64,000 nucleotides of DNA from Methylococcales bacterium (GCA_028713055.1 JAQTOX010000001.1:3988-67987); one strand, 5' to 3'; counted from the first letter of the stretch, positions 36,509 through 50,050 are shown. Numbers and translations: made by a program. Notes: generated by a model from the sequence alone, not told the origin.

Positions 36509-37030
36509 TTAATTAAAATTTTGCTGCATTTTTTGCCACACATTCGGTGTTAATGCGCCTATATATCTAGCACGAATGATACCGTTTCCATCTACCAGAT
36601 ACGTTTGTGGCAAACTTTGAATATCTAACGGCATTGCGCTTGCCATTGCACCATCAAACATAATTGCGTCAAACGGATTCCCTTGTTGTTTTAAATAGGT
36701 TTTGGCATTTTCTAAATCGTCTTGATAATCCACGCCATAAATTGTCACGCCTTCTTCTGAAAGTTGTTTTAACAATTCATGTTCCGCCCGACACGCCGCA
36801 CACCATGAAGCCCAAACATTTATCAACGCAGGCTTTTTAAAATCCGTGCTATTCAAAATGATGTCGGTGTTTTCTAGTGAAGGTAAATTCACCACAGGAA
36901 TTTTTTTACCGATTAAACGCGACGGACTTTTATTCGGGTCATACGTCAAACCGTAACCGTACATCACACCTAAAAGTGAAATTAAGATAATCGGCAACGC
37001 CAACAACAAACGCGGCTCAGGCTTTGTCAC
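36509..37030 (-). CDS. ccmG: Thiol:disulfide oxidoreductase CcmG/DsbE
   Basis: N-terminal TM anchor, the NVWASWCAACRAEH thioredoxin motif, and the LPQTYLVDGNGIIRARYIG motif. Its ATGA overlaps the upstream cytochrome gene. Confidence 0.9.
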   Translation of the reverse strand: MTKPEPRLLLALPIILISLLGVMYGYGLTYDPNKSPSRLIGKKIPVVNLPSLENTDIILNSTDFKKPALINVWASWCAACRAEHELLKQLSEEGVTIYGVDYQDDLENAKTYLKQQGNPFDAIMFDGAMASAMPLDIQSLPQTYLVDGNGIIRARYIGALTPNVWQKMQQNFN

Positions 37031-39939
37031 TGTAAATAATCCACAACTTGACGTACTTTTTCTTTATCGTGAAAGTATTTAAATTTTGGCAACGCATTCA
37101 TACCGTGACAATCGATGCAAAATGTCCCTTTCACGCCTTCAGTTCGTAAAAAACTATTGAGTGGCGAACCTTCCACATTCTCAATTTGCCCAAGTGACAA
37201 AATCGATTTTGGTTTTGATTGCAGCGCGTTTTGACGAATTTTCGCGCTCCAAAAATGTGGCTCGTGGCAGGTTTTACAAGCGATTTGTCCGAAATCGTCG
37301 ATTTTTTCTTTGGCATTTAACAGCGGCATAACTTTTTTATCTGACCGTAAAACCATGTCTTTGTGTGGATGATTAAAAAATCTCACAATTTTCTTTTCTG
37401 CAATGCCATTTTTTTGATGGCAGTTAATGCAAAGTTTATCTTCACGCAATTCGCTATGTTGCAATTCTCGGTCAGCAAAATCTTCTACAACCGATTTCAC
37501 CGAAAATAAATGCGGTGGATTTTTATCGCCTTTGTGCAAACTGTGACACGTGCCACAAACGCCACTTTGCGAAGGTTTTTCGTTAAATTGATTTGGTTTA
37601 TTTTTCGCCGTAATTCGCAAATCGTGGTCACTTCCAACTATCGCTTGTTTGCCTTGATGGCAATGTGAACAGAGTTCGCCATTTTGATTATTTTCAACTA
37701 ATGCGGGTGTATCGGTTTTGCCTTCATGCACCGAGTGACACGTTAAGCAACCAATTTCGCGCGTTTTTTTACCAGCGACAATTTCAACGTCATCGTCCAT
37801 TTTTACATTCACAGGATGGACGCCTTTTTGATCTGCATCGTCTTTGTCTTTTGCATGTTGACGTTGATGGCACGTTTTACAAAGTGATTCCGCGTCTTTA
37901 ATCCCTTTGTCGAGCAATGCCGTTTCTGGATTGCCCGAATGAACATTGTGGCAACTTTGACAGGTGACAAATTTCACTTCTTTGTCGTTTTTTTTCATGG
38001 GTTCATCAGGTTTTACGTTTGTTGGATGAATACCTTTGTGACGGGCATCGTCTTTATTTTTCGAGGCTTGTTTATCGTGGCAGGTTTCACAAAGCGCATC
38101 AGAAGTCAGATATTTTTTCTCAAGCAACGCTGAACCAAGTTTGCCATCATGAACAACGTGACAGGTTTGACAACTGACAAACTCAACAGTTTTGCCATCT
38201 TTTTGCATTGGTTTCTGATGTTTTTTTGGATCGGGTTTGATATTGACCGGATGTACGCCTTTTTTATGTGCGTCTTTTTCATTTTCGGAACTCTGCCGTT
38301 CGTGACATTCCAAACATAACGATGCTTTTTCATTTTCCAAAACAGTCAACGCGCCATTATCAAAACCGCCGTGAATTTGGTGACACGTTTGGCAAAGCAT
38401 TTCGTTTTGATTTCCTAAAACACCGCCATTTTTTAGTAACGAATCAGGTAACCCGTGTTGTTGTAATTTTGCCTCTGTTGCAAAACCAAGCGCGTTTTTT
38501 TCCGGCGGCAAGGCTAATTTAATGGCTAACGGATGATTCACACCGCGATTTTTGGCTTCTTTTTCACGGGTATTTTTACCTTTAGATTCATGACATTTTT
38601 CGCACAAATCGCCGTTTTTATTTGGCACACGCAGCCACGCATTGCCATGTTCTTTGTAAAGCGTTTCGTTCTCCAACATTTCACCCCCCTTTGAAAGGGG
38701 GGCTAGGGGGGATTTAGTGTGTGGCGTGTGGCAACTCGCACAATTCAAGTTGTTATGTTCGCCGTGAGGAAAATCCTTTGGTAATTTATCGGTGCGTTTT
38801 TCAACGAAACGTTCTTTTTTTAATTTTTCATCGTCATAAATTGTTGAATGTTGCGCTTTTGTGCCGATTCGCAAACGTGAATCCACAATTGCGCCGTTAT
38901 GACAGCTATAACACATCAAAAATGAACCATCAGGCAAAACGCCATTTTTGTCGGGTTGCGCCGTTTCTTTAACCCACGATAAATGACACGCTAAACAATT
39001 TTTTTGGGAAAGCTCAATTGAAACAGAATTATTTTTAGCAAGTTGTGAAAATTGTGGATTGATTGAAAATTCGACAATTTGATTGCCTAACGTTTCAGCA
39101 AGAAAAAGTTTATTGTCGCGCCATGCCAAGGAAGTCGGTGATTGTAAAACCATTGTTTTGCCGTTGTTATCAGTTAATTCTCCCAATGCTTCGCCATTTT
39201 TGAAGACTTTAATCGTTCCAAAATAACTGTCACTCACAAACAGCAAATCATTTTTTAGGTCGATTGCAATGCCATTTGGACGAAATAACGCCGTTTTGTT
39301 TGTACCGAATTTGCCAATCGTCGAAAAGAATCGCCCGTTTTTATCAAACTGTTGAATGCGTGAATTCATAATATCGACAACATAAAGATAACCGTCGCGG
39401 TCAAACGCCATTTGATACGGATATTGAAATTCATCCTCCATTTCGCCACGTTTTCCAAAGCACGGTAATGCTGAGTTTTTAACTAAATCAAAACGACAAA
39501 TTCTATGATTGGCGCGATCTGACCAATAAATTACATCTTCATAAACTGCAATCGCGACAGGTTCGGGCAAATTTTTGCTTTCTGCTGTTTGCGAAACATC
39601 GATTTTTTTGGTGAGTTTGCCCAAATTATCAACGCTCGTTAGTTCACGTTTTAACGGATTTGCGAGCCACCACCCATTTTTATAAGCAAAAACACTTAAT
39701 GCCGCGCCGTGGTTATCAATCAGATTTGCCGATTCACCAAGATGCAAACCCGAATTATCCAAAAACACCATTTTTTCTGCTGAAACCGCAACACCAACTG
39801 GTTTTTGCAAATTCGCCTCTAAAACACGTTGTGCTGTAATTTCTACCGCCCACGCATTCAAGGCGATAAAAAATAAATAGAACGCTAAAAATAGGCGATG
39901 GTTAACGTAACATTTCACGAATAGTAATCCGTTGGTCAT
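37027..39939 (-). CDS. NHL-repeat beta-propeller fused to a 16-haem c-type cytochrome (970 aa; an alternative GTG start at 39918 gives MKCYVNHRLFL...)
   Basis: N-terminal ~300 aa carry NHL repeats (YVVDIMNSRIQQFDKNGRF, LFVSDSYFGTIKVF). There are 16 CxxCH motifs counted by eye, and repeated CxxCH...KD(D)A..KGVHP.N(V/I)K units. Confidence 0.9.
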   Translation of the reverse strand: MTNGLLFVKCYVNHRLFLAFYLFFIALNAWAVEITAQRVLEANLQKPVGVAVSAEKMVFLDNSGLHLGESANLIDNHGAALSVFAYKNGWWLANPLKRELTSVDNLGKLTKKIDVSQTAESKNLPEPVAIAVYEDVIYWSDRANHRICRFDLVKNSALPCFGKRGEMEDEFQYPYQMAFDRDGYLYVVDIMNSRIQQFDKNGRFFSTIGKFGTNKTALFRPNGIAIDLKNDLLFVSDSYFGTIKVFKNGEALGELTDNNGKTMVLQSPTSLAWRDNKLFLAETLGNQIVEFSINPQFSQLAKNNSVSIELSQKNCLACHLSWVKETAQPDKNGVLPDGSFLMCYSCHNGAIVDSRLRIGTKAQHSTIYDDEKLKKERFVEKRTDKLPKDFPHGEHNNLNCASCHTPHTKSPLAPLSKGGEMLENETLYKEHGNAWLRVPNKNGDLCEKCHESKGKNTREKEAKNRGVNHPLAIKLALPPEKNALGFATEAKLQQHGLPDSLLKNGGVLGNQNEMLCQTCHQIHGGFDNGALTVLENEKASLCLECHERQSSENEKDAHKKGVHPVNIKPDPKKHQKPMQKDGKTVEFVSCQTCHVVHDGKLGSALLEKKYLTSDALCETCHDKQASKNKDDARHKGIHPTNVKPDEPMKKNDKEVKFVTCQSCHNVHSGNPETALLDKGIKDAESLCKTCHQRQHAKDKDDADQKGVHPVNVKMDDDVEIVAGKKTREIGCLTCHSVHEGKTDTPALVENNQNGELCSHCHQGKQAIVGSDHDLRITAKNKPNQFNEKPSQSGVCGTCHSLHKGDKNPPHLFSVKSVVEDFADRELQHSELREDKLCINCHQKNGIAEKKIVRFFNHPHKDMVLRSDKKVMPLLNAKEKIDDFGQIACKTCHEPHFWSAKIRQNALQSKPKSILSLGQIENVEGSPLNSFLRTEGVKGTFCIDCHGMNALPKFKYFHDKEKVRQVVDYLQ
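38679..38718. repeat. Half-copy (single arm) of the 80-nt palindromic element, in-frame inside the NHL cytochrome gene
   Basis: tcacccccctttgaaaggggggctaggggggattt matches the right arm of the copies at 43918-43997 and 47091-47170. It is translated as KSPLAPLSKGGE. Confidence 0.7.
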
Positions 39940-40687
39940 CGTTTTTATAATGTTCTAAAAAGCGTGGAATGATGTGCGTGGTAATCGCTTGAACTTGTTC
40001 TGAAGTTGCACCCAATTTGGACAAATCGAGTTTCGATTTTTTATCATTGTGGCATTCTTGGCAAGGCGTTCCTTGATGTATTTGATCGGTTTTTTGCCAA
40101 TTCATCGGCGCGTGAATTTTTGCGTGCAACGTCACCTTTTCTGAATCATTCGCGTGTTTCCATTGTTCTTCGATTTGATTTGAAAACTCATCACTTTTCA
40201 ACAAGAAAATCCGTACATTATTTAAAAATGGCCCGATTTTAGGATTTGTCAAACGTTGATTTTCGTTATCGATATTTTTGACAATTCGCAATAAATTCTG
40301 TCCTAAAACGGGCTGCTGTTTTTCCATATCAAACCACTGATAAGTAAATTTTTTATTTTCATAATGACACGTTTCACACGCAATAAATCGAACGTGCATA
40401 TTATTAAACGTGCGTGTTCTCAATGCCTTTTGATGTGGTAACGGAGAATGGCATGTTTGGCAAAAACTTTGTGGCGCGGTTTCGAGTTCACCCGTTTGTT
40501 TATGAAACGGTGGAATTACGAATTTTTCTTTAATCTCAATGTCTTTGTGTTCACGCACAGATTTTGCTGATAACTCAACCGCTTTTTGAGTAACTGACGC
40601 ATTTTCGATTTGTTGTTGGTGCAACGGAACATCTGCGGCAAAAGCCGATTTAACGATGAATAAAAATAATAAAAAATAAATTTTCAT
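39902..40687 (-). CDS. Trihaem c-type cytochrome (261 aa), secreted
   Basis: Signal peptide MKIYFLLFLFIVKSAFA and the motifs CQTCH, CETCH and CQECH. Confidence 0.85.
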   Translation of the reverse strand: MKIYFLLFLFIVKSAFAADVPLHQQQIENASVTQKAVELSAKSVREHKDIEIKEKFVIPPFHKQTGELETAPQSFCQTCHSPLPHQKALRTRTFNNMHVRFIACETCHYENKKFTYQWFDMEKQQPVLGQNLLRIVKNIDNENQRLTNPKIGPFLNNVRIFLLKSDEFSNQIEEQWKHANDSEKVTLHAKIHAPMNWQKTDQIHQGTPCQECHNDKKSKLDLSKLGATSEQVQAITTHIIPRFLEHYKNDDQRITIREMLR

Positions 40688-41970
40688 GATTTATCCTCAT
40701 CGTTTTTGGCTTTGGCGAATCGCTTTTTAATTTTCACCCACAAGCCTTCTTTCTTTTTAGGTTTTGAACCGATGATGATGCGTTGAAATTTCTCCGCGCC
40801 CAAAATTGAATTATTGTTGTTTTTGTTCAATTTGCTAGCATCACCAAAAATGCTCCAGGCGATATTTCCAAGCAAAAACACAATGGCAAATGAACCTAAA
40901 ATTGCTGCCAGTTTGTACCAAATCGATAATGTTTTAAACGTTGCAAAGTCGGGTTTTAAAACTTCATTTACTTTTGTTTCGACACCTAACCCAAGTGTTT
41001 GCACACCGTGCATTTCTGAATTTAAAAAGCCTTTGTTAGCCACGCTTTTTGAATAATCTTTATGGCAGTTCGATTGTCCACAAGTTTGCGCTAAATGTGC
41101 GGGATTTACCGACGAATCTACGTTTTCATCTCGTTTAATGCCATGATGTAAACCAGTTGGCGCGTGACATTCAACGCATGAGGCACCTACTAAATTTTCA
41201 TCAGCTAATAATCGTCCGTGTAAGGTTTTGTTATAACTTTCAGTCGAATGAATAAACGCCAAACTCACGGCTTTTTTTTCTTTTGTTTGGGAATCGTCTT
41301 GTTCAATTTTTGCCATTTTTTCAATATTGCCATGACAATCGATACACAATTTATTTGAAACATTTTTGTTCAAATGATTGCCAATATAACGGCGCAAAAT
41401 GTGACCGCTAAATTGATTTCGCCACACATCACCCTCGTGACAAGTGCCGCATTCTGCATCATTGTGAGAAAACTCTTTTTTGAATGCGTCCATTTGCGAT
41501 GCGGCAATGTACGGCGCGTTATCGTGACAACGCCGACACGAAGGCAAGGCAGAATCGGTGTCTTCTTTGATTCGATTTCCCGCCGCAAAATCTTTGCTTA
41601 AACCTTTTCCGTGTGCGGAACTTTCAAATTCTTTGGCAATATCTTTGTGTGTGAATGCCTTGCCATTGGAAGGTTCTTTGACATGACAGGTTTCGCCACA
41701 ATCGACCAAACCATCTTTTTCTTCGTGCGGATAATCAGTGATTTTTCGATGACAATCTTTGCACGGAACAGAACCATGCAACGAACCGTAATAATCGGAT
41801 TTCAAAATCGAAGCCGAACGAATTTGCCCTTGCTTATCGACATATTTCAAATCAGGCAAACCGTGACACGAAAAACAACCATCTGGATCAGGTTGGCGTT
41901 TATCGGCAAAAGTTAGATTGCAAAAAATCAGCAGCAACGCAAAGAAAAAGAATTTAAAACACTTCATCAA
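40684..41970 (-). CDS. Multihaem c-type cytochrome (6 CxxCH + CX3CH + CX4CH) with a C-terminal transmembrane anchor
   Basis: Signal peptide. Motifs CFSCH, CKDCH, CRRCH, CGTCH, CIDCH and CVECH, plus CGETCH (41683-41700) and CGQSNCH (41062-41082). TM helix LSIWYKLAAILGSFAIVFLLGNIAWSIF, then a Lys-rich tail. Confidence 0.85.
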   Translation of the reverse strand: MMKCFKFFFFALLLIFCNLTFADKRQPDPDGCFSCHGLPDLKYVDKQGQIRSASILKSDYYGSLHGSVPCKDCHRKITDYPHEEKDGLVDCGETCHVKEPSNGKAFTHKDIAKEFESSAHGKGLSKDFAAGNRIKEDTDSALPSCRRCHDNAPYIAASQMDAFKKEFSHNDAECGTCHEGDVWRNQFSGHILRRYIGNHLNKNVSNKLCIDCHGNIEKMAKIEQDDSQTKEKKAVSLAFIHSTESYNKTLHGRLLADENLVGASCVECHAPTGLHHGIKRDENVDSSVNPAHLAQTCGQSNCHKDYSKSVANKGFLNSEMHGVQTLGLGVETKVNEVLKPDFATFKTLSIWYKLAAILGSFAIVFLLGNIAWSIFGDASKLNKNNNNSILGAEKFQRIIIGSKPKKKEGLWVKIKKRFAKAKNDEDKS

Positions 41971-43019
41971 TGCACAGCCGTCGCAATTGTTATCATTGTT
42001 AAAAACCCCAACAGCAACGTCGCGTTAATGACTCTTGTCCATGAAATAGTTTGAACAGGCGTTACTTTTGGTTCAAAACGTGGTTTAAAGGTAATCACTT
42101 GCCAATCGGGATCGGGGAAAATTTCTGTACCTTTTTTAACACGCTTCGGTTCTTTGTGACGCGAAGCTGTGGTCCATTCGATTGCGTTCCAATCACACAC
42201 GTCAACACATTCGTGACAATCCATGCACGATGATTGTTCGACAGTGGCGACTTTATCAATCATTTTGATCGCGCCACACATACAATTTCGCGCACAAACA
42301 TTGCAACCTGTACAACGTTCTTTGGCAACGCGAATGCGGTGTGTGCTGCGAAAACGTGAGCCAAAACTGTTCACAACACCGTCGATTGCGCCAATCGGAC
42401 ACATAAATTGGCAATAAGCACGACCTTTGCTTGAGAAAAATCCAAGCAATAAAAGCAACGATAAATTCACTAAACCTACCGCTGAAAAAATAAACGCTAA
42501 ACCACCCGCGCCGCCTGACATCGCTTCGACTAAACGCGGTACAGTCACAAAATTACATAATGTACACGCACTCACACCAATGGCAGGTAAAACAATTAAA
42601 TATGTTCCCAAATAGCTGTAGCGAATTTGAAATTGCGGCAACCAACGGTATTCGATTTTCCATCGGTCATTTAATAAACGGCTGACCAACTCGCTAAATC
42701 CACCGACAGGACATAAAAAACTACACCAAATCCGTCCAAAAAATAATGTCGTTAGCAAAATCAATCCAAACGCAATCACGCCAATCATTGCCGCTGAAAC
42801 GTGCGTAGCAAAATCATCGAGCGACATATTTGGAAAATATAAATAAAACCGTCGCATACACAAACGCCCACATAAATCGCTATTGCCTGCGAGTTTAGGC
42901 AATATCGCCAACGGCGTTAAAAATACAATGCAAGAAACAAAAATCGTCGTGTAACGAAAACGTTGAACTTTTGGGACTTCGCGCCAACGTTGTAAAGTTG
43001 TTTTAAATGGATTCTTCAT
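41967..43019 (-). CDS. NapH/MauN/NosR-type membrane polyferredoxin (4Fe-4S binding integral membrane protein)
   Basis: Two CX3CP motifs (WCSFLCPVGG, YCQFMCPIGA) in TM-flanking loops. Two ferredoxin clusters, CTGCNVCARNC and CMDCHECVDVC. Several TM helices, including an extra C-terminal one. Confidence 0.8.
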   Translation of the reverse strand: MKNPFKTTLQRWREVPKVQRFRYTTIFVSCIVFLTPLAILPKLAGNSDLCGRLCMRRFYLYFPNMSLDDFATHVSAAMIGVIAFGLILLTTLFFGRIWCSFLCPVGGFSELVSRLLNDRWKIEYRWLPQFQIRYSYLGTYLIVLPAIGVSACTLCNFVTVPRLVEAMSGGAGGLAFIFSAVGLVNLSLLLLLGFFSSKGRAYCQFMCPIGAIDGVVNSFGSRFRSTHRIRVAKERCTGCNVCARNCMCGAIKMIDKVATVEQSSCMDCHECVDVCDWNAIEWTTASRHKEPKRVKKGTEIFPDPDWQVITFKPRFEPKVTPVQTISWTRVINATLLLGFLTMITIATAVH

Positions 43020-43022
43020 CGT

Positions 43023-44009
43023 TTAATTCTCAAACTCATGACAACTCAAACATAACGTGCCGTCTTTTGCTGGCAAGCGTAATAAAACTTCATTTTTCAG
43101 GCGTTGATATGGCGGCAAAGTAGTCGCTAATTTTTCTAAACGGTCGAGCTTATCCGCGTCAATAACTTCGCTCCAACTGTGTTTTTCATATTCCACGCCT
43201 TTTTTAATATCGCCATCGATTTGTTTGCTAGCAGGATTTTTTTCACCTAAAACACCTTTTGCGTGTGGCGAATGGCACGTTAAACAAAGCACTTCATCAT
43301 TTTCCGAAAGCGGCAAATGAACACCTTGCTCGGTTTCTATTTTTTGCAAACGCGCTTTCATATTTCGTGCTGAACTTTTCGATTGTTCTAACGTTTTAAG
43401 GTTCGCATCGGTATGTTCAACCGCGTTGAAATGCGGCGTTTTTAAATGGCAACCCAAACACACTTTTTCAACAGGTAAACGCAATCTGGCTTCAACTAAC
43501 GGACGCAATTTGTCGCGCTGTTCGTTGATTTCACTGTGACAAAATAAACAGTTTTCTTTTTTAATCGTACTGTCATCATTCAGCATCAAATGAATGTTTG
43601 GGCGTTCATGGGCTTTTTCATCGTGACAGTTCGCACAAAATGTTTCTAATTTTTTATAACCGTTTTTGCGTAAAAAATCAGGTGCATTCTTATCAATTTT
43701 GTCGTAAGGCGTTTCAGCGATTTTTTCTAAACCGTGGCACGTCTTACAACCGATTTTTCGCCCTTCTTTTAAAACAAATTCAGCAGGTGGGTGCATTTCG
43801 TCTAACAATTTAATATCTACCGCGTGATGCAAATCGGGCAAATGTTTCGATTGTTTATACGATTGCGTTTGCCAATCGGTCGATTCGGCGGCAAAAGGCG
43901 TTGTGCAAATTAACCATAAAACAAATCCTCCAACCCCCTTCAAAAAGGAGGCTTTTTCTTTTTCCCCTTGAAAAGGGGGGCAGGGGGGATTTGCTTTAAA
44001 AACTCTCAT
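43023..44009 (-). CDS. Hexahaem c-type cytochrome (328 aa); the N-terminus is encoded by the palindromic element
   Basis: CKTCH, CANCH, CLFCH, CLGCH, CLTCH and CLSCH. Signal-like GVGGFVLWLICTTPFAAES. A possible internal TTG start gives MKGVGGF... Confidence 0.85.
   Translation of the reverse strand: MRVFKANPPCPPFQGEKEKASFLKGVGGFVLWLICTTPFAAESTDWQTQSYKQSKHLPDLHHAVDIKLLDEMHPPAEFVLKEGRKIGCKTCHGLEKIAETPYDKIDKNAPDFLRKNGYKKLETFCANCHDEKAHERPNIHLMLNDDSTIKKENCLFCHSEINEQRDKLRPLVEARLRLPVEKVCLGCHLKTPHFNAVEHTDANLKTLEQSKSSARNMKARLQKIETEQGVHLPLSENDEVLCLTCHSPHAKGVLGEKNPASKQIDGDIKKGVEYEKHSWSEVIDADKLDRLEKLATTLPPYQRLKNEVLLRLPAKDGTLCLSCHEFEN
43918..43997. repeat. 80-nt palindromic (MITE/RPE-like) element, full copy
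   Basis: aaaacaaatcctccaacccccttcaaaaaggagg...ccccttgaaaaggggggcaggggggatttgcttt. The arms are inverted repeats of each other, and each arm contains its own C5/G5 mini-hairpin. Confidence 0.8.
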
Positions 44010-44995
44010 AATCCTTTCTGCACGCGCTCGCCGTGATTATGACAAGTCACGCAATCCGAACCATTGTTAAAATGCACGCCGCTTAAACCGTTGCCCGTGT
44101 CGATTTCACCACCATCAGAAACCGTTTTCATGTTGTGGCACAACGCACAAAATTGGCTGTAATTCGTGTTGTTTTCGAGTAATTTCACGCTATACGGTTT
44201 GTTACGCATTTTAGAATCAAGAAAAATCGCGCCATTGCGTGAATCATCAATAAGTAAATTCGCATCTGTTGTACCGTGCATGGTGTGACAATCGACACAA
44301 TTAACAATCGTTTTGTACGCATAACCATCGCGCAGACCACTATATAAACCATTGCCCGTGCCTTCTGAAACGCCGTGTTTATCAATTTTCCAATAATCAT
44401 CTTCGGCGGCAATCGATTGATTTCTTCTGCCTGCATGAATAATTGGATAGTTCGTTTGCTGATGATTTCGATTGTGGCAACGCAAACAGAATTCGTTTTG
44501 GTCTTGGTAAGGCAACGGAGTTTCCGTTGGTTTATTAGGTTTGTCGCTAAACATCGTCAAATCAATATCTAACTCAAATTTACCATTCATATTCGAGGCA
44601 TCATGACAAACAACGCATTGCCGACTGGTCGTTGGCAAATCTTTCGACGCATCAAAATCATGCCGATGCTTGCCTGTTCGCATTGGATTCAAAGGCATAT
44701 CTTGCGGATTATGACAAATCAAACATTGCGGCTCGGTTTTTTTCGCACCGTTATCACCGTGACAAGCTGTGCAAGTAGCGAATTTCTTTTTATCTACAAT
44801 TGTTTTTATTTTCGGTACGGTTTCATGCAAACGTTGTAGCGCGTGACAACTTTGGCAATTTGCTTTGCCCCACGCGCTACCCATTCCATGCGACGGTGTT
44901 AAAAGCAAACTACCATTTTGCGAAATCGTTTTGGCGTGAATCGGCATCACGAAAAACAAGAAAATTAAAAAGGGCAGATGTTTAACGTGTCGCAT
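44006..44995 (-). CDS. Octahaem c-type cytochrome (start taken at Met 44995; the track ORF extends to 45049)
   Basis: Eight CxxCH motifs (CQSCH, CTACH, CLICH, CVVCH, CLRCH, CVDCH, CALCH, CVTCH). Signal peptide MRHVKHLPFLIFLFFVMPIHA. Confidence 0.85.
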   Translation of the reverse strand: MRHVKHLPFLIFLFFVMPIHAKTISQNGSLLLTPSHGMGSAWGKANCQSCHALQRLHETVPKIKTIVDKKKFATCTACHGDNGAKKTEPQCLICHNPQDMPLNPMRTGKHRHDFDASKDLPTTSRQCVVCHDASNMNGKFELDIDLTMFSDKPNKPTETPLPYQDQNEFCLRCHNRNHQQTNYPIIHAGRRNQSIAAEDDYWKIDKHGVSEGTGNGLYSGLRDGYAYKTIVNCVDCHTMHGTTDANLLIDDSRNGAIFLDSKMRNKPYSVKLLENNTNYSQFCALCHNMKTVSDGGEIDTGNGLSGVHFNNGSDCVTCHNHGERVQKGL

Positions 44996-45575
44996 GACAG
45001 TCACTGCAATAATTTTCATTGTGGCAACGTCCGCAACGTGCCGAATCAAAACGTGCTTCTAAACCGTGCAACGTGCGATAACCTAACGGATGATAACCCG
45101 CGCCCGACGTGTCACGGCGCAAATGGCAATCGGTACAAAAGTTCACATCTAAATGACACGTTTGGCAGTATTTTTCATTGCCTCGCGCGGCTTCGTTGTG
45201 ATGGTTTTTGTAATCAAATTTATGGTCAGGCGGTTGAATGCGCTCTTTATCGGTGTGACAAACGTCGCAACGCCACGGCGCACGTTGTTCATCCACATGG
45301 CAATTATGGCAAACCGCTTTGAGTGATTCGTTAGCAATGACGGTTAAATTTTTGAGTTTTTTAATATCAACGACATCGGTTTTTGCGTAAGTATGACAAA
45401 GCAAACAACTATCACCTTCTTCTTTCATCACGTCTAAATGTGCGTTGTGCGGATAATAAACGTCGGATTTTTGATTTCGTTTTTCCCACCACGAATTGTC
45501 AGTTTTGGCATCAATCGCAAACACTGAACTCGTCAAAACGAACAATAAACACATTGTGATAATTCGGTAACTCAT
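44982..45575 (-). CDS. Heptahaem c-type cytochrome, very haem-dense (197 aa), periplasmic
   Basis: Signal peptide MSYRIITMCLLFVLTSSVFA. Motifs CLLCH, CHNCH, CDVCH, CQTCH, CTDCH, CGRCH and CSDCH. Encoded directly downstream of the beta-barrel gene. Confidence 0.9.
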   Translation of the reverse strand: MSYRIITMCLLFVLTSSVFAIDAKTDNSWWEKRNQKSDVYYPHNAHLDVMKEEGDSCLLCHTYAKTDVVDIKKLKNLTVIANESLKAVCHNCHVDEQRAPWRCDVCHTDKERIQPPDHKFDYKNHHNEAARGNEKYCQTCHLDVNFCTDCHLRRDTSGAGYHPLGYRTLHGLEARFDSARCGRCHNENYCSDCHATR

Positions 45576-47176
45576 GGTTTTTTCGCCTGAAAATAATCGA
45601 AATAATAAGTGAGTTGCATCGAGCCTAGATATTCATTGGTGAGTTGTGAATTGTTGATATAACTGGCTTTCAACGCCACAACCCAATTGTTTTTAATCAT
45701 CGTTTGCCATTCTGTTTCAACGCCTGTGGCAAAATTTTCGGGATACAAATTTTTCTTTTCATCGCGAAACGCTAGATTCACGCTGTAACGATTTTTACTA
45801 TCGAGTGCGTGGGTATGCGAAACATAAAAACTCGTCGCGTATTCGCCACTGTTCAATTCCAAATAATCGACTGTACCTTGCCAAGTGACATTCGGTTTAA
45901 ATTGGTAACTCACGCTGGCATTCGCGCCATAACCGTTATAACCCGTTTTGCGATCGGCAACTTGAACGCCTGCCGAATAACGCAAATCACTGGAAAAACG
46001 ATGCTCCACCGAACCGCGCCAAATTTGTTGTTCACCCAGCGCGTAAGCCGAATAAAAACGATCTCGAAAGGTGACATAAGGTTGAACAGGTCGATAGGCT
46101 TCGTAATAATTTCGCAACCGCACATTTTTAAAAACATCCCACCATGAATCGACAAACACATTTTCAAGGCGATTTTTTTCACTGGCGTAAGAACCTTTAA
46201 CGTAAATTTCAAACGGCTTTTTTTCACCGAGTAAATTACCCGTTAAATGCGTTGCGGCGTTATAGCGATATGTCGTCAACGTGCGTTTTCTAAGTGTTTG
46301 CGTTGGCATACCTAATACGTCGAAATTCGCATTTGTGGCAGGTTGATTTTCAACAGTTGTCGCTTCAATCGGTTGCGGCGTTTCAATCGCGTCGAAATTG
46401 TTATTGACCAAACTTTCATTAAATGTTGGCGAAAGTAACGTGTCTTCTGGATTGCTTGTGGTTTTTGGTGCTTCAACAACCGCGTTAGTATCAACATCTT
46501 TCACTTCTGTTTTAGGCGAAATTGGTTGAATTACATTTTGTAAAAATGTTTCGTTACGTTGAACCACTTGCATGCCAAAACGGAAATCAGTTTTTTCTAA
46601 TTTAAACCATGAGGTTGAAAAATTTGGAGAAAGATTTAACGCGCTTTCAATGCCTCCAACCAAATTACCGCGTAACGATTGAACGTGATCAACTTGCAAC
46701 GGTCGACCGCCATAAATCTCAAAACTCAACGGCGTTGAAACTTGATATTGTGCTGTTGCGCCATCAACTAAATACAAGCCTAAATTGTCGCTTTTTTCAA
46801 ACCGTCCACCGCGTAATGTCACGGGTAAAAAGTCAAAACTCTTTTCGGCATACGCCTGATAAAGCCGTTGTTTGTCGCGGTAAATATCGGTACTTAAACG
46901 ACTTACTGCGCTAATTTGTGCATTCAACTTTTGATTCGGATTGTTATAAACGAGTTGCCCCCAAACTTCACCCGTGTAATCACCATTTTGCATATCGTAG
47001 CGATTGTCGGTCTGCATTTTTGTACGTATTGAACCCCGCCAACTGTCGTTTTGGTCGGCGGCGAAAGTGTTTGTTGCCAATGCCGACAGCAAAGCAAATC
47101 CCCCAACCCCCTTCAAAAAGGGGGCTTTCTTATCTCTCCCCTTTGAAGGGGGGCGAGGGGGATGTGCTTTAATCAT
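45572..47176 (-). CDS. Outer-membrane beta-barrel protein (porin component; start taken at Met 47176, track ORF to 47224, possible TTG start inside the element)
   Basis: No Cys. Alternating hydrophobic/aromatic beta-strand pattern throughout (for example RYSAGVQVADRK, ANASVSYQF, WQGTVDYLEL, YATSFYVSHTHAL, RYSVNLAFRD, WVVALKASYIN, GSMQLTYYF). Signal-like GVGGFALLSALATNTFA-ADQ. One long P/T/N/E-rich loop. Confidence 0.75.
   Translation of the reverse strand: MIKAHPPRPPSKGRDKKAPFLKGVGGFALLSALATNTFAADQNDSWRGSIRTKMQTDNRYDMQNGDYTGEVWGQLVYNNPNQKLNAQISAVSRLSTDIYRDKQRLYQAYAEKSFDFLPVTLRGGRFEKSDNLGLYLVDGATAQYQVSTPLSFEIYGGRPLQVDHVQSLRGNLVGGIESALNLSPNFSTSWFKLEKTDFRFGMQVVQRNETFLQNVIQPISPKTEVKDVDTNAVVEAPKTTSNPEDTLLSPTFNESLVNNNFDAIETPQPIEATTVENQPATNANFDVLGMPTQTLRKRTLTTYRYNAATHLTGNLLGEKKPFEIYVKGSYASEKNRLENVFVDSWWDVFKNVRLRNYYEAYRPVQPYVTFRDRFYSAYALGEQQIWRGSVEHRFSSDLRYSAGVQVADRKTGYNGYGANASVSYQFKPNVTWQGTVDYLELNSGEYATSFYVSHTHALDSKNRYSVNLAFRDEKKNLYPENFATGVETEWQTMIKNNWVVALKASYINNSQLTNEYLGSMQLTYYFDYFQAKKP
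47091..47170. repeat. 80-nt palindromic (MITE/RPE-like) element, full copy
   Basis: aaagcaaatcccccaacccccttcaaaaaggggg...cccctttgaaggggggcgagggggatgtgcttt. It has the same length and architecture as the copy at 43918-43997. Confidence 0.8.
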
Positions 47177-47402
47177 CTTTAGTGCGGATTTCAAACGGTT
47201 CAAGCCCTTGCTTGCGTTGTTCACGGCGTTTTTTTAATGCCAAACCCGTGAACGTCGCCACTGCAATAATGCAACTTCCGCAACCTGCACACGTTCCAAT
47301 TTTCGGCACAGTGCAAGCCGTCGCTAATAATCCCTGACTCAATGCAACGCCCGAACCTGTGAGCCACGGCAATGATTGGGCGACTAAATCGGATGTTTTC
47401 AT
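47169..47402 (-). CDS. Small Cys-rich membrane protein (77 aa), unknown function
   Basis: Two hydrophobic segments flank CTVPKIGTCAGCGSC (CX8CX2CX2C), with a basic C-terminal tail. Its ATGA overlaps the upstream gene, and its stop lies in the palindromic element. Confidence 0.55.
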   Translation of the reverse strand: MKTSDLVAQSLPWLTGSGVALSQGLLATACTVPKIGTCAGCGSCIIAVATFTGLALKKRREQRKQGLEPFEIRTKDD

Positions 47403-50050
47403 TTTTTCAAATCCACTAAAACCGCACGTTCTGGCAATTGCGTCAGCGATAAAATAACGTAATTCGATTTAACAGCGATAATTTCAGCGGGAATGCGGGT
47501 TTTAGGTGGGTCAATAATGTTGCCGCTAACTAAATTTACCGCGAATAATCCCACTTCATTTGGCGCAGTCGCATAACCGTCGTAAGGTAATTTAACAAAC
47601 AACTTTTCTTTGCCAAGCGAGCAAATTAGCGCATCGTTTAAACAACGTGATTGAAAATAAAATACGGAACTTGAAACTTCACCTTGCGATAATGTGCTAA
47701 CTTTTTTATTTCCAACGAACGCAAAATCCATCCAATCTGAAGCGATAATTTCAAAACGATAATTCGGTAAAATAGCTTTATTTGCATTGGTGTAGTTTGC
47801 AGCCAGCCAGATATTTTTGACGTTGTCGCCTGTTAAATTATTCTTAAAAACAAAGGCTTTTCGAGTAAGTTGCGCGGCAAGTGTTGTTTTTACATCGGTA
47901 TCCAAATCCTTCAAAATATCATCTCGTGCCATGACTTGAAATTCGCCCGAAACGGCATTTATTTTGTTGCTTTGCAATTGTGAGGTAAATGGATTTAGTT
48001 TTGTTTCATACAAAACATCATCGATATTTTCGACAATTTTGCCGTCATCTGAGAGTTTGAAATATGGCATTGCTAATTTCACAACGCCTTCTTTAATCAG
48101 TTTTGGATACGCTGTTTTATCGTTTAATTCTGCGACCACACGAACATTGTTTTTGCCAAAAATTCCCGAGTCAGAAAGTGCCGAATTGATTGAACCGTTA
48201 CGTTTGCGTTCATGACAATCGGTGCAAGGCATCGTATCCGCGATAGGGCGCGTGTTGTGACTGATTAAATACTCATTCGTTTCAGTCCAAATCATTTGTG
48301 CATTGGGCTTTTGAAAACCTTTTGCTTTGAGCAAATCATCAAAACGTTTTTTCAGCTCTTTCACGTCTTGATAACTTTTTGGTTCGCTATCCACTCCGTT
48401 TGTAACTTCTAAACGTTCGGCTTGCGTTAAAACACGCTGATTTGTACTGTCTACCCAATAATAACGGCTCGCAGGATTGTACGGCATAATGCGCGACTTT
48501 CCATCTTCAGAGGGTCGATAACGAAAACGTGGTTTGAGTGGTTTATCTTGATATGCCAATTTATATGCCAATTTTGTGATATGGCACGTTTGACAGGCAA
48601 CGGAATTGAAATGCACTTGCACCGTTCTATCCAGTGTTCGTTCGGCATAACCCACCATATCGCCTCTATTCCGCCACAATTCACGATGGGCATCTAAAAT
48701 TGTCGCCAAACCCGAATGCGGCCATGCTGGTTTTTCAGGACTTCCGTAAGTTTGAACCCCGTGGCAATGCTCACATGACAATGGTTTAGGCTGATTATTC
48801 AAATCGCGACGCACATCTTCATCGGAAAATCCCGTTAAAAACTGATGATCCGCACTTAAATCCAGAGCTTTTTTGTAATAATTTTTTGCGTGACAGGCTT
48901 CGCAATTTTCAATCGAACGAACGGTGCCTTTTTCTGTCCACGATTTGCCTTTGTGAACATCGTCGCGCGTATCTACAACATTTGCGTCTACTTTTGCCGC
49001 GTCGCCAAAACCGTAAAAACCGCGTCGTTGTTCGCTAGTTGAATGACATAACATACAATTTTCGCTGGCTGGAAAACGCAACATAGGAATTTGTGCATCG
49101 CCGTTTGCGTCAAAAGCGGCTTCATCCCATTTCAAAACCGGTTCAGCATGTTCAGGTGTTTCAAGTGTGGCTAACGTTTGACCGTCTACGCTATCAGGCA
49201 ATAAATCTAAAAACGCAAAAATTGCCGAATTCGCATAACGAAACCAGCCGTTTTTGATAATTTGCACGTTGCGTTGTGTTTTCCATTCAGAAACGGGACG
49301 TTTGAACTTAGAAATATCCGCGTGGCAAGCCATACAGTCGGGTTCAATTACCCCGCTTTTTTGCCAATCCCATTGTTCAATTTTTTTGCCATTCCACTCG
49401 AAATAATCGCCGTCTAAAAAAGAAACTGCATTTTCAGGTTGTGAGTCGTAACGTTTTCCAACACGGTCTTTTTCAGCAAACCCCCCGCCAGTGTGACATT
49501 CTTCACAATTTTTAATCAAACCGACTGCGCCGTAGTCTAAAAAATCGGCTTCTTTCGTCGTCATTTTTTTACTTAACCACGAAGGATTATTGCCGTTTTG
49601 GCAACTGTAACCACCGAAATAAGCAGGTGAAGTCAGTGCTGCTAAACCACGACGAAGTCCAAATTTATCATCACTTTCATCGCGTCCCATTTCAAAGTGA
49701 TAAGCGTGACTAATTTTATCAATATCATGACAACCCGCTCCGCCACCACAACTGGTACGAGTGCTATAAGGTTTTTGGGAATCCAAAACGTGTTGCCCAG
49801 TTTCATCTAACAACGGAATTGCGGGATGGATTGTGGGGAAGTCGACGGTATTTCCAATTGCTGAATTTGTTGTGGCAACGACTGGCGGCATCATTGTCAC
49901 AGGCATCGTTATCGATGGTGTTGATATTGGCGCGATTTCATAGGTGGGCGTATATCCAGACAAATCTTCGCCATCGTCAGCCCACACATTTGAAAATGGA
50001 AATGCGAACAATAAAATTGCGAAAAAAAGTTGCTGAATGACGAAGTGCAT
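47399..50050 (-). CDS. Large multihaem c-type cytochrome (883 aa, 7 CxxCH + one CX5CH) with a non-haem C-terminal domain; first gene of the operon
   Basis: Signal peptide MHFVIQQLFFAILLFAFPFSNVWA and a Pro/Thr-rich linker. Motifs CEECH, CMACH, CMLCH, CEACH, CEHCH, CQTCH and CTDCH, plus CGGGAGCH at 49727-49750. The last ~270 aa lack haem motifs. Confidence 0.85.
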   Translation of the reverse strand: MHFVIQQLFFAILLFAFPFSNVWADDGEDLSGYTPTYEIAPISTPSITMPVTMMPPVVATTNSAIGNTVDFPTIHPAIPLLDETGQHVLDSQKPYSTRTSCGGGAGCHDIDKISHAYHFEMGRDESDDKFGLRRGLAALTSPAYFGGYSCQNGNNPSWLSKKMTTKEADFLDYGAVGLIKNCEECHTGGGFAEKDRVGKRYDSQPENAVSFLDGDYFEWNGKKIEQWDWQKSGVIEPDCMACHADISKFKRPVSEWKTQRNVQIIKNGWFRYANSAIFAFLDLLPDSVDGQTLATLETPEHAEPVLKWDEAAFDANGDAQIPMLRFPASENCMLCHSTSEQRRGFYGFGDAAKVDANVVDTRDDVHKGKSWTEKGTVRSIENCEACHAKNYYKKALDLSADHQFLTGFSDEDVRRDLNNQPKPLSCEHCHGVQTYGSPEKPAWPHSGLATILDAHRELWRNRGDMVGYAERTLDRTVQVHFNSVACQTCHITKLAYKLAYQDKPLKPRFRYRPSEDGKSRIMPYNPASRYYWVDSTNQRVLTQAERLEVTNGVDSEPKSYQDVKELKKRFDDLLKAKGFQKPNAQMIWTETNEYLISHNTRPIADTMPCTDCHERKRNGSINSALSDSGIFGKNNVRVVAELNDKTAYPKLIKEGVVKLAMPYFKLSDDGKIVENIDDVLYETKLNPFTSQLQSNKINAVSGEFQVMARDDILKDLDTDVKTTLAAQLTRKAFVFKNNLTGDNVKNIWLAANYTNANKAILPNYRFEIIASDWMDFAFVGNKKVSTLSQGEVSSSVFYFQSRCLNDALICSLGKEKLFVKLPYDGYATAPNEVGLFAVNLVSGNIIDPPKTRIPAEIIAVKSNYVILSLTQLPERAVLVDLKK

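What the first reader, a model, noticed from the sequence alone, without database searches (positions are those of the whole stretch)
40684..43019. Unusual inner-membrane entry module: NapH-type polyferredoxin paired with a C-terminally anchored octahaem
The 350-aa protein has the NapH/MauN/NosR hallmarks: two CX3CP motifs (WCSFLCPVGG, YCQFMCPIGA) and two ferredoxin-type Cys clusters. There is no NapG-like periplasmic ferredoxin, NapAB, NosZ or MauAB nearby.

Its translationally coupled downstream neighbour is a secreted multihaem protein whose only TM helix lies at the C-terminus (LSIWYKLAAILGSFAIVFLLGNIAWSIF). This is the reverse of NapC/CymA/NirT topology.

Together they could form a quinol (or cytoplasmic Fe-S) to periplasmic haem junction of a type not used by the Mtr, Pio/Mto or Geobacter Cbc/Imc systems as I know them.
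Basis: inference. Interest (0 to 1): 0.6.

Follow-up and report, generated by a model that had tools for sequence, protein, structure and literature searches.

The report
Iron-sulfur/octahaem inner-membrane electron gate
A membrane iron-sulfur protein and an eight-haem cytochrome that always sit side by side, and are fused into one protein in some bacteria, probably carry electrons across the inner membrane of methane-, ammonia- and sulfur-oxidising bacteria into a cytochrome chain leading to the cell surface.

Summary
Gene F (41967-43019, minus strand, 350 aa) is a distant NapH-like polyferredoxin. Gene G (40684-41970, 428 aa) is a secreted cytochrome with 8 haem sites and a C-terminal membrane helix.

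The pair is not a chance neighbourhood:
- In a sample of 201 Methylococcales genomes, the same 29 carry both genes.
- G directly follows F in 76 of 76 informative loci from other species.
- F and G are one polypeptide in 15 of those loci.
- One protein fuses F, G and the next gene H.
- In Methylococcus, Methylothermaceae and Nitrosomonas, G's cytoplasmic tail continues into an NADPH diflavin reductase.

These fusions fix the topology: the ferredoxin domain and tail face the cytoplasm, the haems face the periplasm. They also argue for a cytoplasmic reductant rather than, or besides, quinol.

F carries 16 invariant cysteines. Four face the periplasm and are missing from E. coli NapH, which suggests an iron-sulfur relay across the membrane.

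The locus is the orthologue of the copper-repressed MCA0424-0433 operon of Methylococcus capsulatus. I found no paper that dissects this module.

Verdict: a new cytochrome-coupled variant of NapH-like transmembrane electron-transfer systems. The membrane-crossing step and the donor in this genome, which lacks the reductase fusion, are inferred. The scan had no note of it on other DNA.

The parts
41967..43019 (-). F: 350-aa NapH-like polyferredoxin with five predicted TM helices (about residues 23-44, 78-97, 132-151, 175-197, 327-348) and a cytoplasmic 2x[4Fe-4S] ferredoxin domain between TM4 and TM5.
   Evidence: Pfam Fer4_5 matches twice, plus Fer4_7. TIGR02163 scores 78.9 bits, below its 213 cut-off. 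AF2 helices agree, at pLDDT 66.
42858..42872 (-). Periplasm-facing Cys pair 1 of F (C50-x3-C54, 'DLCGRLC') in the loop after TM1.
   Evidence: Cys in all 80 sequences that cover the position, of 81 aligned. Absent from E. coli NapH.
42708..42725 (-). CX3CP motif 1 of F (C99-P104) at the cytoplasmic end of TM2.
   Evidence: Invariant in 81 of 81 sequences. Shared with E. coli NapH.
42555..42566 (-). Periplasm-facing Cys pair 2 of F (C152-x2-C155, 'ACTLCN') at the outer end of TM3.
   Evidence: Invariant in 81 of 81 sequences. Absent from E. coli NapH. Kept in distant 280-320-aa NapH-like relatives.
42396..42413 (-). CX3CP motif 2 of F (C203-P208) at the cytoplasmic end of TM4.
42165..42335 (-). 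Ferredoxin-type domain of F with two CxxCxxCxxxC motifs, on the cytoplasmic side.
   Evidence: Fer4_7 and Fer4 hits. The PDB sequence search hits only this part of F. The eight Cys are invariant.
41976..42041 (-). Extra C-terminal TM5 of F. Its end faces the periplasm.
   Evidence: Present in F orthologues. In F-G fusions this helix runs straight into G's haem domain. It is missing from E. coli NapH and from the nearest outgroup.
40684..41970 (-). G: 428-aa periplasmic cytochrome c with 8 haem sites (CxxCH at residues 32, 70, 145, 174, 209, 265; CX3CH at 91; CX4CH at 297), a signal peptide and a C-terminal anchor.
40852..40935 (-). G's single TM helix (about residues 346-373).
   Evidence: Hydropathy. 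AF2 helix 350-375 at pLDDT 80-90. Present in all homologues.
40687..40851 (-). G's cytoplasmic tail with the conserved motif G..FQ..(M/I)IG followed by a Lys/Arg run. In relatives it continues into flavodoxin, FAD and NAD(P)H domains.
   Evidence: alignment; the 981-aa and 959-aa fused forms.
39902..40687 (-). H: 261-aa triheme cytochrome, the next gene and a probable third subunit.
   Evidence: H is found just downstream of G (or of G-R) in 63 of the 66 loci in which it was detected; in L032, L041 and L060 a gap of about 290-470 bases separates them. H is fused behind F-G in the 967-aa protein P0226.
36509..50050 (-). Surrounding operon (context).
- A: 883 aa, 7 haems.
- C, D, E: 7, 8 and 6 haems.
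- F, G, H as above.
- I: 970 aa, NHL repeats plus 16 haems.
- J: DsbE/CcmG.
   Evidence: The order is colinear in 80 loci of other species. The operon is orthologous to M. capsulatus MCA0424-0434.

Best explanation
F, G and probably H form one inner-membrane complex. It passes electrons outward from the cytoplasmic face of the membrane to periplasmic haems. These feed the multihaem chain of the same operon, which probably includes an outer-membrane pore (B).

Shown:
- The genes are an obligate, sometimes fused, unit.
- F's 2x[4Fe-4S] domain and G's tail are cytoplasmic, and G's eight haems are periplasmic.
- In a sister clade G's tail carries a complete flavodoxin-FAD-NAD(P)H reductase.

Inferred path: reductant, then F's two ferredoxin clusters, then a centre held by the two CX3CP motifs at the inner face, then a centre held by the four extra invariant Cys (C50, C54, C152, C155) at the outer face, then G's haems, then H and the periplasmic cytochromes.

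In Methylococcus, Methylothermaceae and Nitrosomonas the reductant is NAD(P)H through FAD and FMN. In this genome the reductase domain is absent. The donor here is a soluble flavodoxin, ferredoxin or reductase acting in trans, or possibly quinol.

Electron export from NAD(P)H conserves no energy. The likely role is therefore reductive Fe/Cu acquisition or disposal of excess reducing power under O2 or Cu limitation, not a proton-motive respiration.
For: - Co-occurrence: F and G are each found in exactly the same 29 of 201 Methylococcales genomes, adjacent and co-directional wherever contigs allow.
- Synteny: G lies directly downstream of F in 76 of 76 informative loci, within an A-I operon colinear across Methylococcales, Chromatiales, Thiotrichaceae/Beggiatoa, Oleiphilaceae and Nitrosomonas.
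- F-G fusions: one ORF in 15 loci. F's TM5 runs into G's first haem motif.
- F-G-H fusion: P0226.
- G-reductase fusions: G is fused to Flavodoxin_1, FAD_binding_1 and NAD_binding_1 (E 1e-14 to 1e-33) behind its single TM. This occurs in 15 of the 28 other Methylococcales carriers sampled, in nine of the 80 fetched loci (Nitrosomonas among them), and in the two Methylococcales loci L002 and L005.
- Cysteines: 16 Cys are invariant or nearly so across 81 F sequences (one carries Ser at C203), while the two other Cys vary. The four periplasm-facing ones are absent from E. coli NapH.
- Haem ligands: G has 16-17 invariant His for 8 haem sites, as expected for an all bis-His wire.
- Expression: the M. 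capsulatus orthologues MCA0424-0433 are induced 2-9-fold under Cu limitation, and MCA0424 and MCA0426 are found in the surface fraction (PMC4831470).
- Precedent: NapH-like proteins are already proposed as modular transmembrane electron carriers to periplasmic redox domains (PMC8238504).
Against: - No cofactor, activity or structure was measured.
- This window's G has no reductase domain, and no dedicated partner was found. The one stand-alone CysJ-like gene is widespread regardless of F/G, and it is not found (E <= 1e-60) in two F/G carriers.
- Centres at the two membrane faces could be too far apart for direct tunnelling unless the loops are re-entrant.
- Assembling an Fe-S centre on the periplasmic side of a Sec-inserted protein is unusual.
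- Each fusion type is one clade or grade on the F tree. The fusions are therefore two or three events, not many independent ones.
- NapH proper is regarded as a quinol dehydrogenase.
Confidence: 0.6

Rival explanations
1. F is a NapH-type quinol dehydrogenase. It oxidises (ubi)quinol in the membrane and hands the electrons to G's haems, making a quinol:cytochrome c oxidoreductase that replaces CymA, ImcH or CbcL. The cytoplasmic Fe-S domain, and the fused reductase where present, would be only regulatory, or would feed the quinone pool.
For: - F aligns end to end with NapH/MauN models at E 4e-22.
- F shares the four-TM core, both CX3CP motifs and the ferredoxin domain with E. coli NapH.
- This genome's G lacks any reductase domain.
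- A NapH homologue followed by an 8-haem cytochrome in an ANME-2c genome has been proposed as a quinol:cytochrome c oxidoreductase (PMC9012536).
- A quinol donor would allow energy conservation upstream.
Against: - F scores far below the NapH cut-off (79 against 213 bits), and no NapG-like periplasmic partner is present.
- A complete NAD(P)H diflavin reductase tethered next to F's cytoplasmic clusters in about half of the Methylococcales carriers is hard to explain if electrons enter from quinol.
- The eight invariant ferredoxin-domain Cys point to an essential cytoplasmic electron path.
Confidence: 0.25
2. The module works inward. Electrons taken up by the outer cytochromes pass through G and F to the fused reductase and make NAD(P)H, for example for soluble methane monooxygenase under Cu limitation, as Tanaka et al. 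suggested for EET in M. capsulatus.
For: - The orthologous operon is induced when sMMO, which needs NADH, is used (PMC4831470).
- Inward EET 'to acquire reducing power' was proposed in PMC6281684.
- Diflavin reductases are reversible in principle.
Against: - Inference from energetics: bis-His c-haems are far more positive than NAD(P)+/NAD(P)H, and moving electrons into a negative-inside cell costs further energy.
- No coupling device such as a proton channel is evident in F or G.
- Half of the carriers, this genome included, have no reductase domain.
Confidence: 0.05
3. F is a thiol/disulfide or metal-handling helper, not an electron wire. Its Cys pairs on both faces would relay reducing equivalents to the operon's CcmG/DsbE for maturation of the many, partly non-standard, haem sites, as DsbD/CcdA does. 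Alternatively it would reduce Cu(II)/Fe(III) like the NapH-like cupric reductase CcoG.
For: - CX3C and CX2C pairs face the oxidising periplasm.
- dsbE, ccmH and ccmI end the operon.
- F has a weak CcoG match (TIGR02745, 28 bits).
- The nearest outgroup of F sits beside a TonB-dependent receptor.
- Cu and Fur-box regulation is reported in M. capsulatus.
Against: - The genome has a regular DsbD elsewhere (129 bits).
- F is fused to the octahaem G, not to DsbE, in 15 loci.
- G itself is conserved with all 8 haem sites and 16-17 invariant His, which is more than a maturation client would need.
Confidence: 0.06

Closest known systems
NapH of the NapGH quinol dehydrogenase (E. coli b2204; TIGR02163 NapH/MauN)
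   Same: Both have a four-TM core, a CX3CP motif after TM2 and after TM4, and a C-terminal cytoplasmic 2x[4Fe-4S] domain. They are 26% identical over the whole length.
   Different: - F scores 79 bits against a cut-off of 213.
- There is no NapG, NapAB or NapC.
- F has four extra invariant periplasm-facing Cys and an extra fifth TM helix.
- Its partner is a membrane-anchored octahaem.
- In relatives it is tethered to an NADPH diflavin reductase.
'NapH-like' flavinylation-associated transmembrane electron-transfer systems (NosR, PceC; Meheust et al. 2021, PMC8238504)
   Same: A PF12801 membrane Fe-S protein is thought to carry electrons across the membrane to an extracytosolic redox domain that is fused to it or encoded next to it. 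Usage is modular, and the authors note flavin/cytochrome swaps in other systems.
   Different: Here the periplasmic acceptor is an eight-haem cytochrome c, not an ApbE-flavinylated FMN-binding domain. No FMN_bind domain is found in the ten genes scanned. The output goes to a cytochrome-rich operon that probably includes an outer-membrane pore, not to a soluble reductase.
Methylococcus capsulatus Bath operon MCA0424-MCA0434 (Larsen and Karlsen 2016, PMC4831470)
   Same: It is the orthologous locus, with the same gene order. It is Cu-repressed, holds eight multihaem cytochromes and a beta-barrel protein, and two of its products are found at the cell surface.
   Different: There G (MCA0431 by position) is about 980 aa and carries the diflavin reductase. 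The paper lists it only as 'multiheme c-type cytochrome' and never mentions the Fe-S protein between MCA0429 and MCA0431. The locus-tag mapping is my inference from gene order.
CymA/NapC/NirT, ImcH and CbcL: inner-membrane entry points of the Shewanella and Geobacter EET pathways
   Same: They hold the same position in the pathway, linking the inner membrane to periplasmic multihaem carriers.
   Different: - Those are quinol oxidases with an N-terminal anchor (CymA) or b-haem/NrfD-type membrane parts.
- G scores below the NapC/NirT cut-off (22.4 against 24.1 bits) and is anchored at its C-terminus.
- Here the membrane partner is an Fe-S protein.
NapH homologue followed by an 8-haem cytochrome in one ANME-2c genome (Chadwick et al. 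2022, PMC9012536)
   Same: The same kind of gene pair, proposed there as a quinol:cytochrome c oxidoreductase.
   Different: It is archaeal, sporadic and poorly transcribed. Homology to F and G was not tested here.
Na+-NQR/Rnf and eukaryotic NOX/FRE ferric reductases (functional analogues)
   Same: NAD(P)H feeds flavin(s), then a redox centre within the membrane, then an acceptor on the outer side. NQR and Rnf use an intramembrane Fe-S centre (established knowledge).
   Different: There is no sequence relationship. Those systems use b-haems (NOX/FRE) or NqrD/E-type subunits, and they do not end in c-type multihaem wires.

Membership tests
NapH/MauN (TIGR02163; NF007013 NapH) | Score at or above the curated family cut-off | tested here: not met
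   78.9 bits against 213.05, and 75.2 against 234.
NapH/MauN (TIGR02163; NF007013 NapH) | Four-TM core with two CX3CP motifs and a C-terminal pair of 4Fe-4S motifs | tested here: met
   F adds a fifth TM helix and four further invariant Cys.
NapH/MauN (TIGR02163; NF007013 NapH) | Encoded with NapG and NapAB (or MauAB) | tested here: not met
   None is present among the ten operon genes scanned. F is the only sizeable TIGR02163 match in the genome; the other is a 29-bit match to the ferredoxin-motif end of the model alone.
NapH/MauN (TIGR02163; NF007013 NapH) | Quinol dehydrogenase activity | not testable with these tools
   Needs a membrane or proteoliposome assay.
NapH-like transmembrane electron-transfer systems (PF12801; Meheust 2021) | Multi-TM protein with PF12801 (Fer4_5) above the cut-off | tested here: met
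   78.7 bits against 22, in two stretches.
NapH-like transmembrane electron-transfer systems (PF12801; Meheust 2021) | Extracytosolic ApbE-flavinylated FMN-binding domain fused or adjacent | tested here: not met
   No FMN_bind hit in F or in the other nine genes scanned. The adjacent, and elsewhere fused, periplasmic partner is the octahaem G.
NapC/NirT/CymA tetrahaem quinol dehydrogenases (PF03264) | PF03264 above the cut-off with an N-terminal membrane anchor | tested here: not met
   G scores 22.4 bits against 24.1 with no stretch passing. Its N-terminus is a cleavable-type signal peptide and its only TM helix is C-terminal.
Porin-cytochrome trans-envelope conduits (Mtr/Pcc type) | Outer-membrane beta-barrel encoded with periplasmic and surface multihaem cytochromes | tested here: inconclusive
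   The operon has a 550-aa protein (B) and seven multihaem genes. B matches no MtrB/PioB model and its fold was not modelled. Its M. capsulatus counterpart, MCA0427, is described as a beta-barrel protein.
Membrane-tethered cytochrome/diflavin-reductase fusion (MCA0431 type) | Flavodoxin, FAD and NAD(P)H domains behind G's TM helix | tested here: not met
   The window's G ends 55 residues after the TM helix. The domains are present in relatives.

The most novel reading that the evidence does not exclude
F is a transmembrane iron-sulfur wire with four clusters: two in the cytoplasmic ferredoxin domain, one at each membrane face. It exports electrons from cytoplasmic NAD(P)H, through a fused or free diflavin reductase or flavodoxin, directly to an octahaem cytochrome and on to the cell surface, bypassing the quinone pool. 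That would be a bacterial functional counterpart of NOX/FRE ferric reductases, plugged into a cytochrome chain that probably crosses the outer membrane. It would give aerobic methanotrophs, nitrifiers and sulfur oxidisers a non-respiratory route for Fe/Cu reduction or for dumping electrons in anoxic water.
Probability: 0.35. Interest if true: 0.85.

Novelty: new variant of a known kind. Interest (0 to 1): 0.66.

Why it matters
How 'aerobic' methanotrophs stay active in anoxic lake water and reduce iron minerals or electrodes is an open question. The window's closest relatives are Methylobacter genomes from stratified boreal lakes and Lac Pavin.

Known EET pathways enter the periplasm through quinol-oxidising cytochromes. 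This module offers a different entry point: a membrane Fe-S protein locked to an octahaem. Natural fusions to an NADPH reductase point to a cytoplasmic donor.

The module is conserved across about 270 species-level genomes of methane, ammonia and sulfur oxidisers. It sits in a Cu-regulated operon of a genetically tractable model organism, M. capsulatus Bath, so the hypothesis can be tested directly.

The work also exposes an annotation error: unfused G homologues are labelled 'sulfite reductase flavoprotein'. And it identifies a wider NapH-like subfamily with conserved periplasm-facing cysteines.

Tried and rejected
- AF2 model of F from a 23-sequence alignment: pLDDT 65.9, pTM 0.58, ferredoxin domain below 50. 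No coordinates were returned, so Cys-Cys and cluster distances could not be measured.
- Foldseek of that model against the PDB: nothing better than E = 1.4.
- PDB sequence search with F: only ferredoxin-domain hits, and no solved NapH or NosR membrane part.
- AF2 model of G from 44 sequences: pLDDT 53.6, pTM 0.37. This is too poor for a fold search, so none was run.
- Search for a dedicated reductase acting in trans. The own genome has one CysJ-like gene (573 aa, not next to a CysI, and no true CysI is present). That gene occurs in 127 of 201 Methylococcales genomes regardless of F/G, and was not found in carriers G185 and G089. Rejected as a specific partner.
- Neighbours of the nearest outgroup NapH-like protein (P0078): a TonB-dependent receptor plus unknown small proteins with no Pfam hits. 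No mechanistic lead.
- The Methylobacter porin-cytochrome cluster of PMC13322032 is a different, MtrAB-type locus.
- The Desulfuromonadia cytochrome survey holds nothing on NapH-like partners.
- Literature searches for a cytochrome/diflavin or NapH/multihaem module in methanotrophs found no description.
- A thiol-relay role towards CcmG was considered and down-weighted, because a normal DsbD exists.
- The tree shows each fusion type as a single clade or grade. I therefore do not claim many independent fusions.


Full report
**What is there.** The finding lies inside a long minus-strand operon, 50050 to 36509, with ccmH and ccmI following to 33162.
- A: 883 aa, 7 CxxCH motifs.
- B: 550 aa, no haem motif and no family match above cut-off.
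- C, D, E: 7, 8 and 6 CxxCH motifs.
- F: 350 aa, the Fe-S protein.
- G: 428 aa.
- H: 261 aa, 3 CxxCH motifs.
- I: 970 aa, NHL repeats plus 16 CxxCH motifs.
- J: DsbE/CcmG.

Fer4_5 matches twice at 78.7 bits. F reaches only 78.9 bits on the NapH/MauN model, whose cut-off is 213.

G has a signal peptide, six CxxCH motifs, one CX3CH (CGETCH), one CX4CH (CGQSNCH), a single C-terminal helix and a basic tail of 55 residues. F's stop codon overlaps G's start in the string TTGATG.

**Whose genome.** The window is one contig of a 2.67-Mb Methylococcales assembly that is 96.8% complete. The closest F proteins, at 91-96% identity, come from Methylobacter or Methylococcaceae genomes assembled from stratified boreal lakes and Lac Pavin.

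**Is the pair more than neighbours?** In an even sample of 201 Methylococcales genomes, F is found in 29 and G in exactly the same 29. They are adjacent and co-directional wherever the contigs allow.

A pattern scan of 185,579 species genomes found 272 loci encoding an F relative. I examined the 80 best. G lies immediately downstream of F in all 76 with DNA beyond F. The whole A-I gene order is kept across Methylococcales (including Methyloprofundus and a Bathymodiolus symbiont), Methylothermaceae, Chromatiales, Thiotrichaceae, Halobeggiatoa/Parabeggiatoa, Oleiphilaceae and Nitrosomonas.

**Fusions.** Three kinds of natural fusion tie the parts together.
1. F and G are a single 710-790-aa ORF in 15 loci. 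F's fifth helix runs straight into '...ERxxDPDGCxxCH', which is G's first haem site.
2. A 967-aa protein, P0226, joins F, G and an H-like triheme domain through a further helix.
3. In Methylococcus-like genomes G is about 980 aa. It has the same eight haem sites and one helix (residues 355-377), followed by Flavodoxin_1, FAD_binding_1 and NAD_binding_1 with E-values of 1e-14 to 1e-33. The motifs GSQTGNGE, RLYSIASS and GPGTGIAPFRGF can be read directly in the sequence.

The third form is present in 15 of the 28 other Methylococcales carriers in my sample. It is also present in nine of the 80 fetched loci, including Nitrosomonas.

On a tree of F, the reductase-fused forms make one clade (SH-aLRT 96) that is sister to the window's clade. 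The F-G fused forms are one basal grade. The fusions are therefore few events, but each has been kept through deep divergence, down to about 60% identity in F.

**Topology.** An NAD(P)H-binding domain must be cytoplasmic, so G is oriented with its N-terminus outside and its C-terminus inside. The F-G fusion puts the end of F's TM5 on the haem (periplasmic) side, so the ferredoxin domain between TM4 and TM5 is cytoplasmic.

This agrees with several other observations:
- F's N-terminus carries 7 Lys/Arg.
- The domain behind TM4 carries 20 Lys/Arg.
- F has no Tat or Sec signal.

It follows that both CX3CP motifs sit at the cytoplasmic ends of TM2 and TM4. Two further Cys pairs, C50-x3-C54 after TM1 and C152-x2-C155 at the end of TM3, face the periplasm.

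**The cysteines.** Across 81 F sequences, 15 of these 16 Cys are invariant apart from contig-end gaps, and C203 is replaced by Ser in a single sequence. The two remaining Cys, C30 and C248, vary freely. E. coli NapH keeps the CX3CP and ferredoxin Cys but has no Cys at the four periplasm-facing positions, and it lacks TM5.

A profile search of 1.84 billion representative proteins found 36 relatives at E <= 1e-30. The 280-320-aa NapH-like proteins next in line keep the CxxC at the end of TM3 and at least one loop-1 Cys. F therefore belongs to a wider, uncharacterised branch of NapH-like proteins with periplasm-facing cysteines.

**G as a wire.** All eight haem sites are conserved in 27 diverse homologues. 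Site 3 is always CX3CH. Site 8 is CX4CH, except in Beggiatoa relatives, where it is a plain CxxCH. This argues that site 8 is a real haem site.

Sixteen to seventeen His are invariant in 44 sequences. That is the eight motif His, seven of them invariant and H74 nearly so, plus nine more, as expected for bis-His electron-transfer haems. Behind the helix every homologue keeps a short cytoplasmic motif, G..FQ..(M/I)IG followed by Lys/Arg.

**How it most likely works.**

Shown: F, G and H are a unit, with cytoplasmic Fe-S and flavin on one side and periplasmic haems on the other.

Inferred: electrons enter F's ferredoxin clusters from the cytoplasm. In the fused lineages they come from NAD(P)H through FAD and FMN. 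They cross the membrane through centres held by the CX3CP pairs at the inner face and the extra Cys pairs at the outer face, and they leave through G's haems to H and the periplasmic cytochromes.

The crossing step is the weak link. I could not obtain distances, and a periplasm-side Fe-S centre in a Sec-inserted protein is unusual. Na+-NQR and Rnf do provide a precedent for a membrane-embedded Fe-S centre (established knowledge).

Export from NAD(P)H conserves no energy. I therefore favour reductive metal acquisition or redox balancing over respiration. Three observations fit this:
- The M. capsulatus orthologues are induced under Cu limitation.
- A predicted Fur box lies upstream of MCA0424.
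- ExbB and ExbD genes lie just downstream.

In this genome G has no reductase domain and I found no dedicated partner in trans. The donor here is therefore open. Quinol, as for NapH proper, remains the main rival.

**Comparison with what is known.** The operon is orthologous to M. capsulatus Bath MCA0424-0434. That operon was described in 2016 as eleven genes with eight multihaem cytochromes and a beta-barrel protein (PMC4831470). The paper does not mention the Fe-S protein or the flavoprotein part of MCA0431, and later work on M. capsulatus EET concerns MCA0421 (PMC6281684).

Meheust et al. defined 'NapH-like' systems as transmembrane electron carriers paired with flavinylated periplasmic domains (PMC8238504). 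The present module is the same idea with an octahaem cytochrome as the periplasmic partner. Chadwick et al. noted one ANME-2c NapH homologue followed by an 8-haem cytochrome (PMC9012536).

A survey of boreal-lake genomes flagged 'DFE variants' in Methylococcales without looking at the membrane step. Whether those hits are this operon's cytochromes was not checked. I found no paper that describes this module or the cytochrome-diflavin fusion. Databases call G 'hypothetical', or wrongly 'sulfite reductase flavoprotein'.

**Verdict.** This is a real, strongly conserved inner-membrane module and a new cytochrome-coupled variant of NapH-like electron-transfer systems. The mechanism of membrane crossing and the donor in this organism remain inferences.

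Noticed in passing
window 43918-43999 and 47091-47172: Two copies (80% identical) of an 82-nt G/C-run repeat lie in the 5' ends of the longest ORFs of E and B. They encode the shared 'PP.PP..G..K.A.FLKGVGGF' N-termini. The true starts of E and B are probably downstream, and the element is intergenic.
   Followed up: partly
homologues of G (P0109, P0111, P0115, P0126, P0130 and others): JGI names unfused 420-470-aa G homologues 'sulfite reductase (NADPH) flavoprotein alpha-component'. The label was evidently transferred from the reductase-fused relatives. These proteins have no flavoprotein domain.
   Followed up: partly
G004, G013, G031, G041, G063, G081 (genus g29, Methylococcus-like): In these genomes the only match to a CysJ-type diflavin reductase at E <= 1e-60 is the domain fused to the octahaem G.
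   Followed up: no
G000:C96:1961-3679 (L006:1375-3096): The window's genome has a stand-alone CysJ-like diflavin reductase (573 aa; TIGR01931 609 bits, below its 668 cut-off). It is flanked by a glutamate-synthase fragment and a uracil-DNA glycosylase. No true CysI is found in the assembly.
   Followed up: partly
P0120, P0129 (G homologues of 561-618 aa): Some unfused G proteins carry long cytoplasmic tails with two or three copies of a motif like 'GSTEAG(M/A)LARMERKR(K/L)RAEAAA'.
   Followed up: no
L069, L071, L089, L090 (F-G fusions): In the single-chain forms, F's TM5 ends in an AxA-like sequence (for example VIAAE, SMAAE, AQAKQ) just before the first haem site. The fusion may therefore be cut by signal peptidase into F and G.
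   Followed up: no
L010:3005-6799: The nearest outgroup of F (P0078: 285 aa, 44% identical, all 16 Cys kept, no TM5) is encoded next to a TonB-dependent receptor and two small proteins without family matches.
   Followed up: partly
L079 (JAWKNJ010000008.1): A contig binned as Flavobacteriales carries the operon. Its F sits inside the Nitrosomonas clade, on a short branch. This is probably a binning error or a very recent transfer.
   Followed up: no
window 34988-36493: A 501-aa protein with Gly/Asp-rich RTX-like repeats at its C-terminus lies between dsbE and ccmH at the end of the operon. No family scan was run on it.
   Followed up: no
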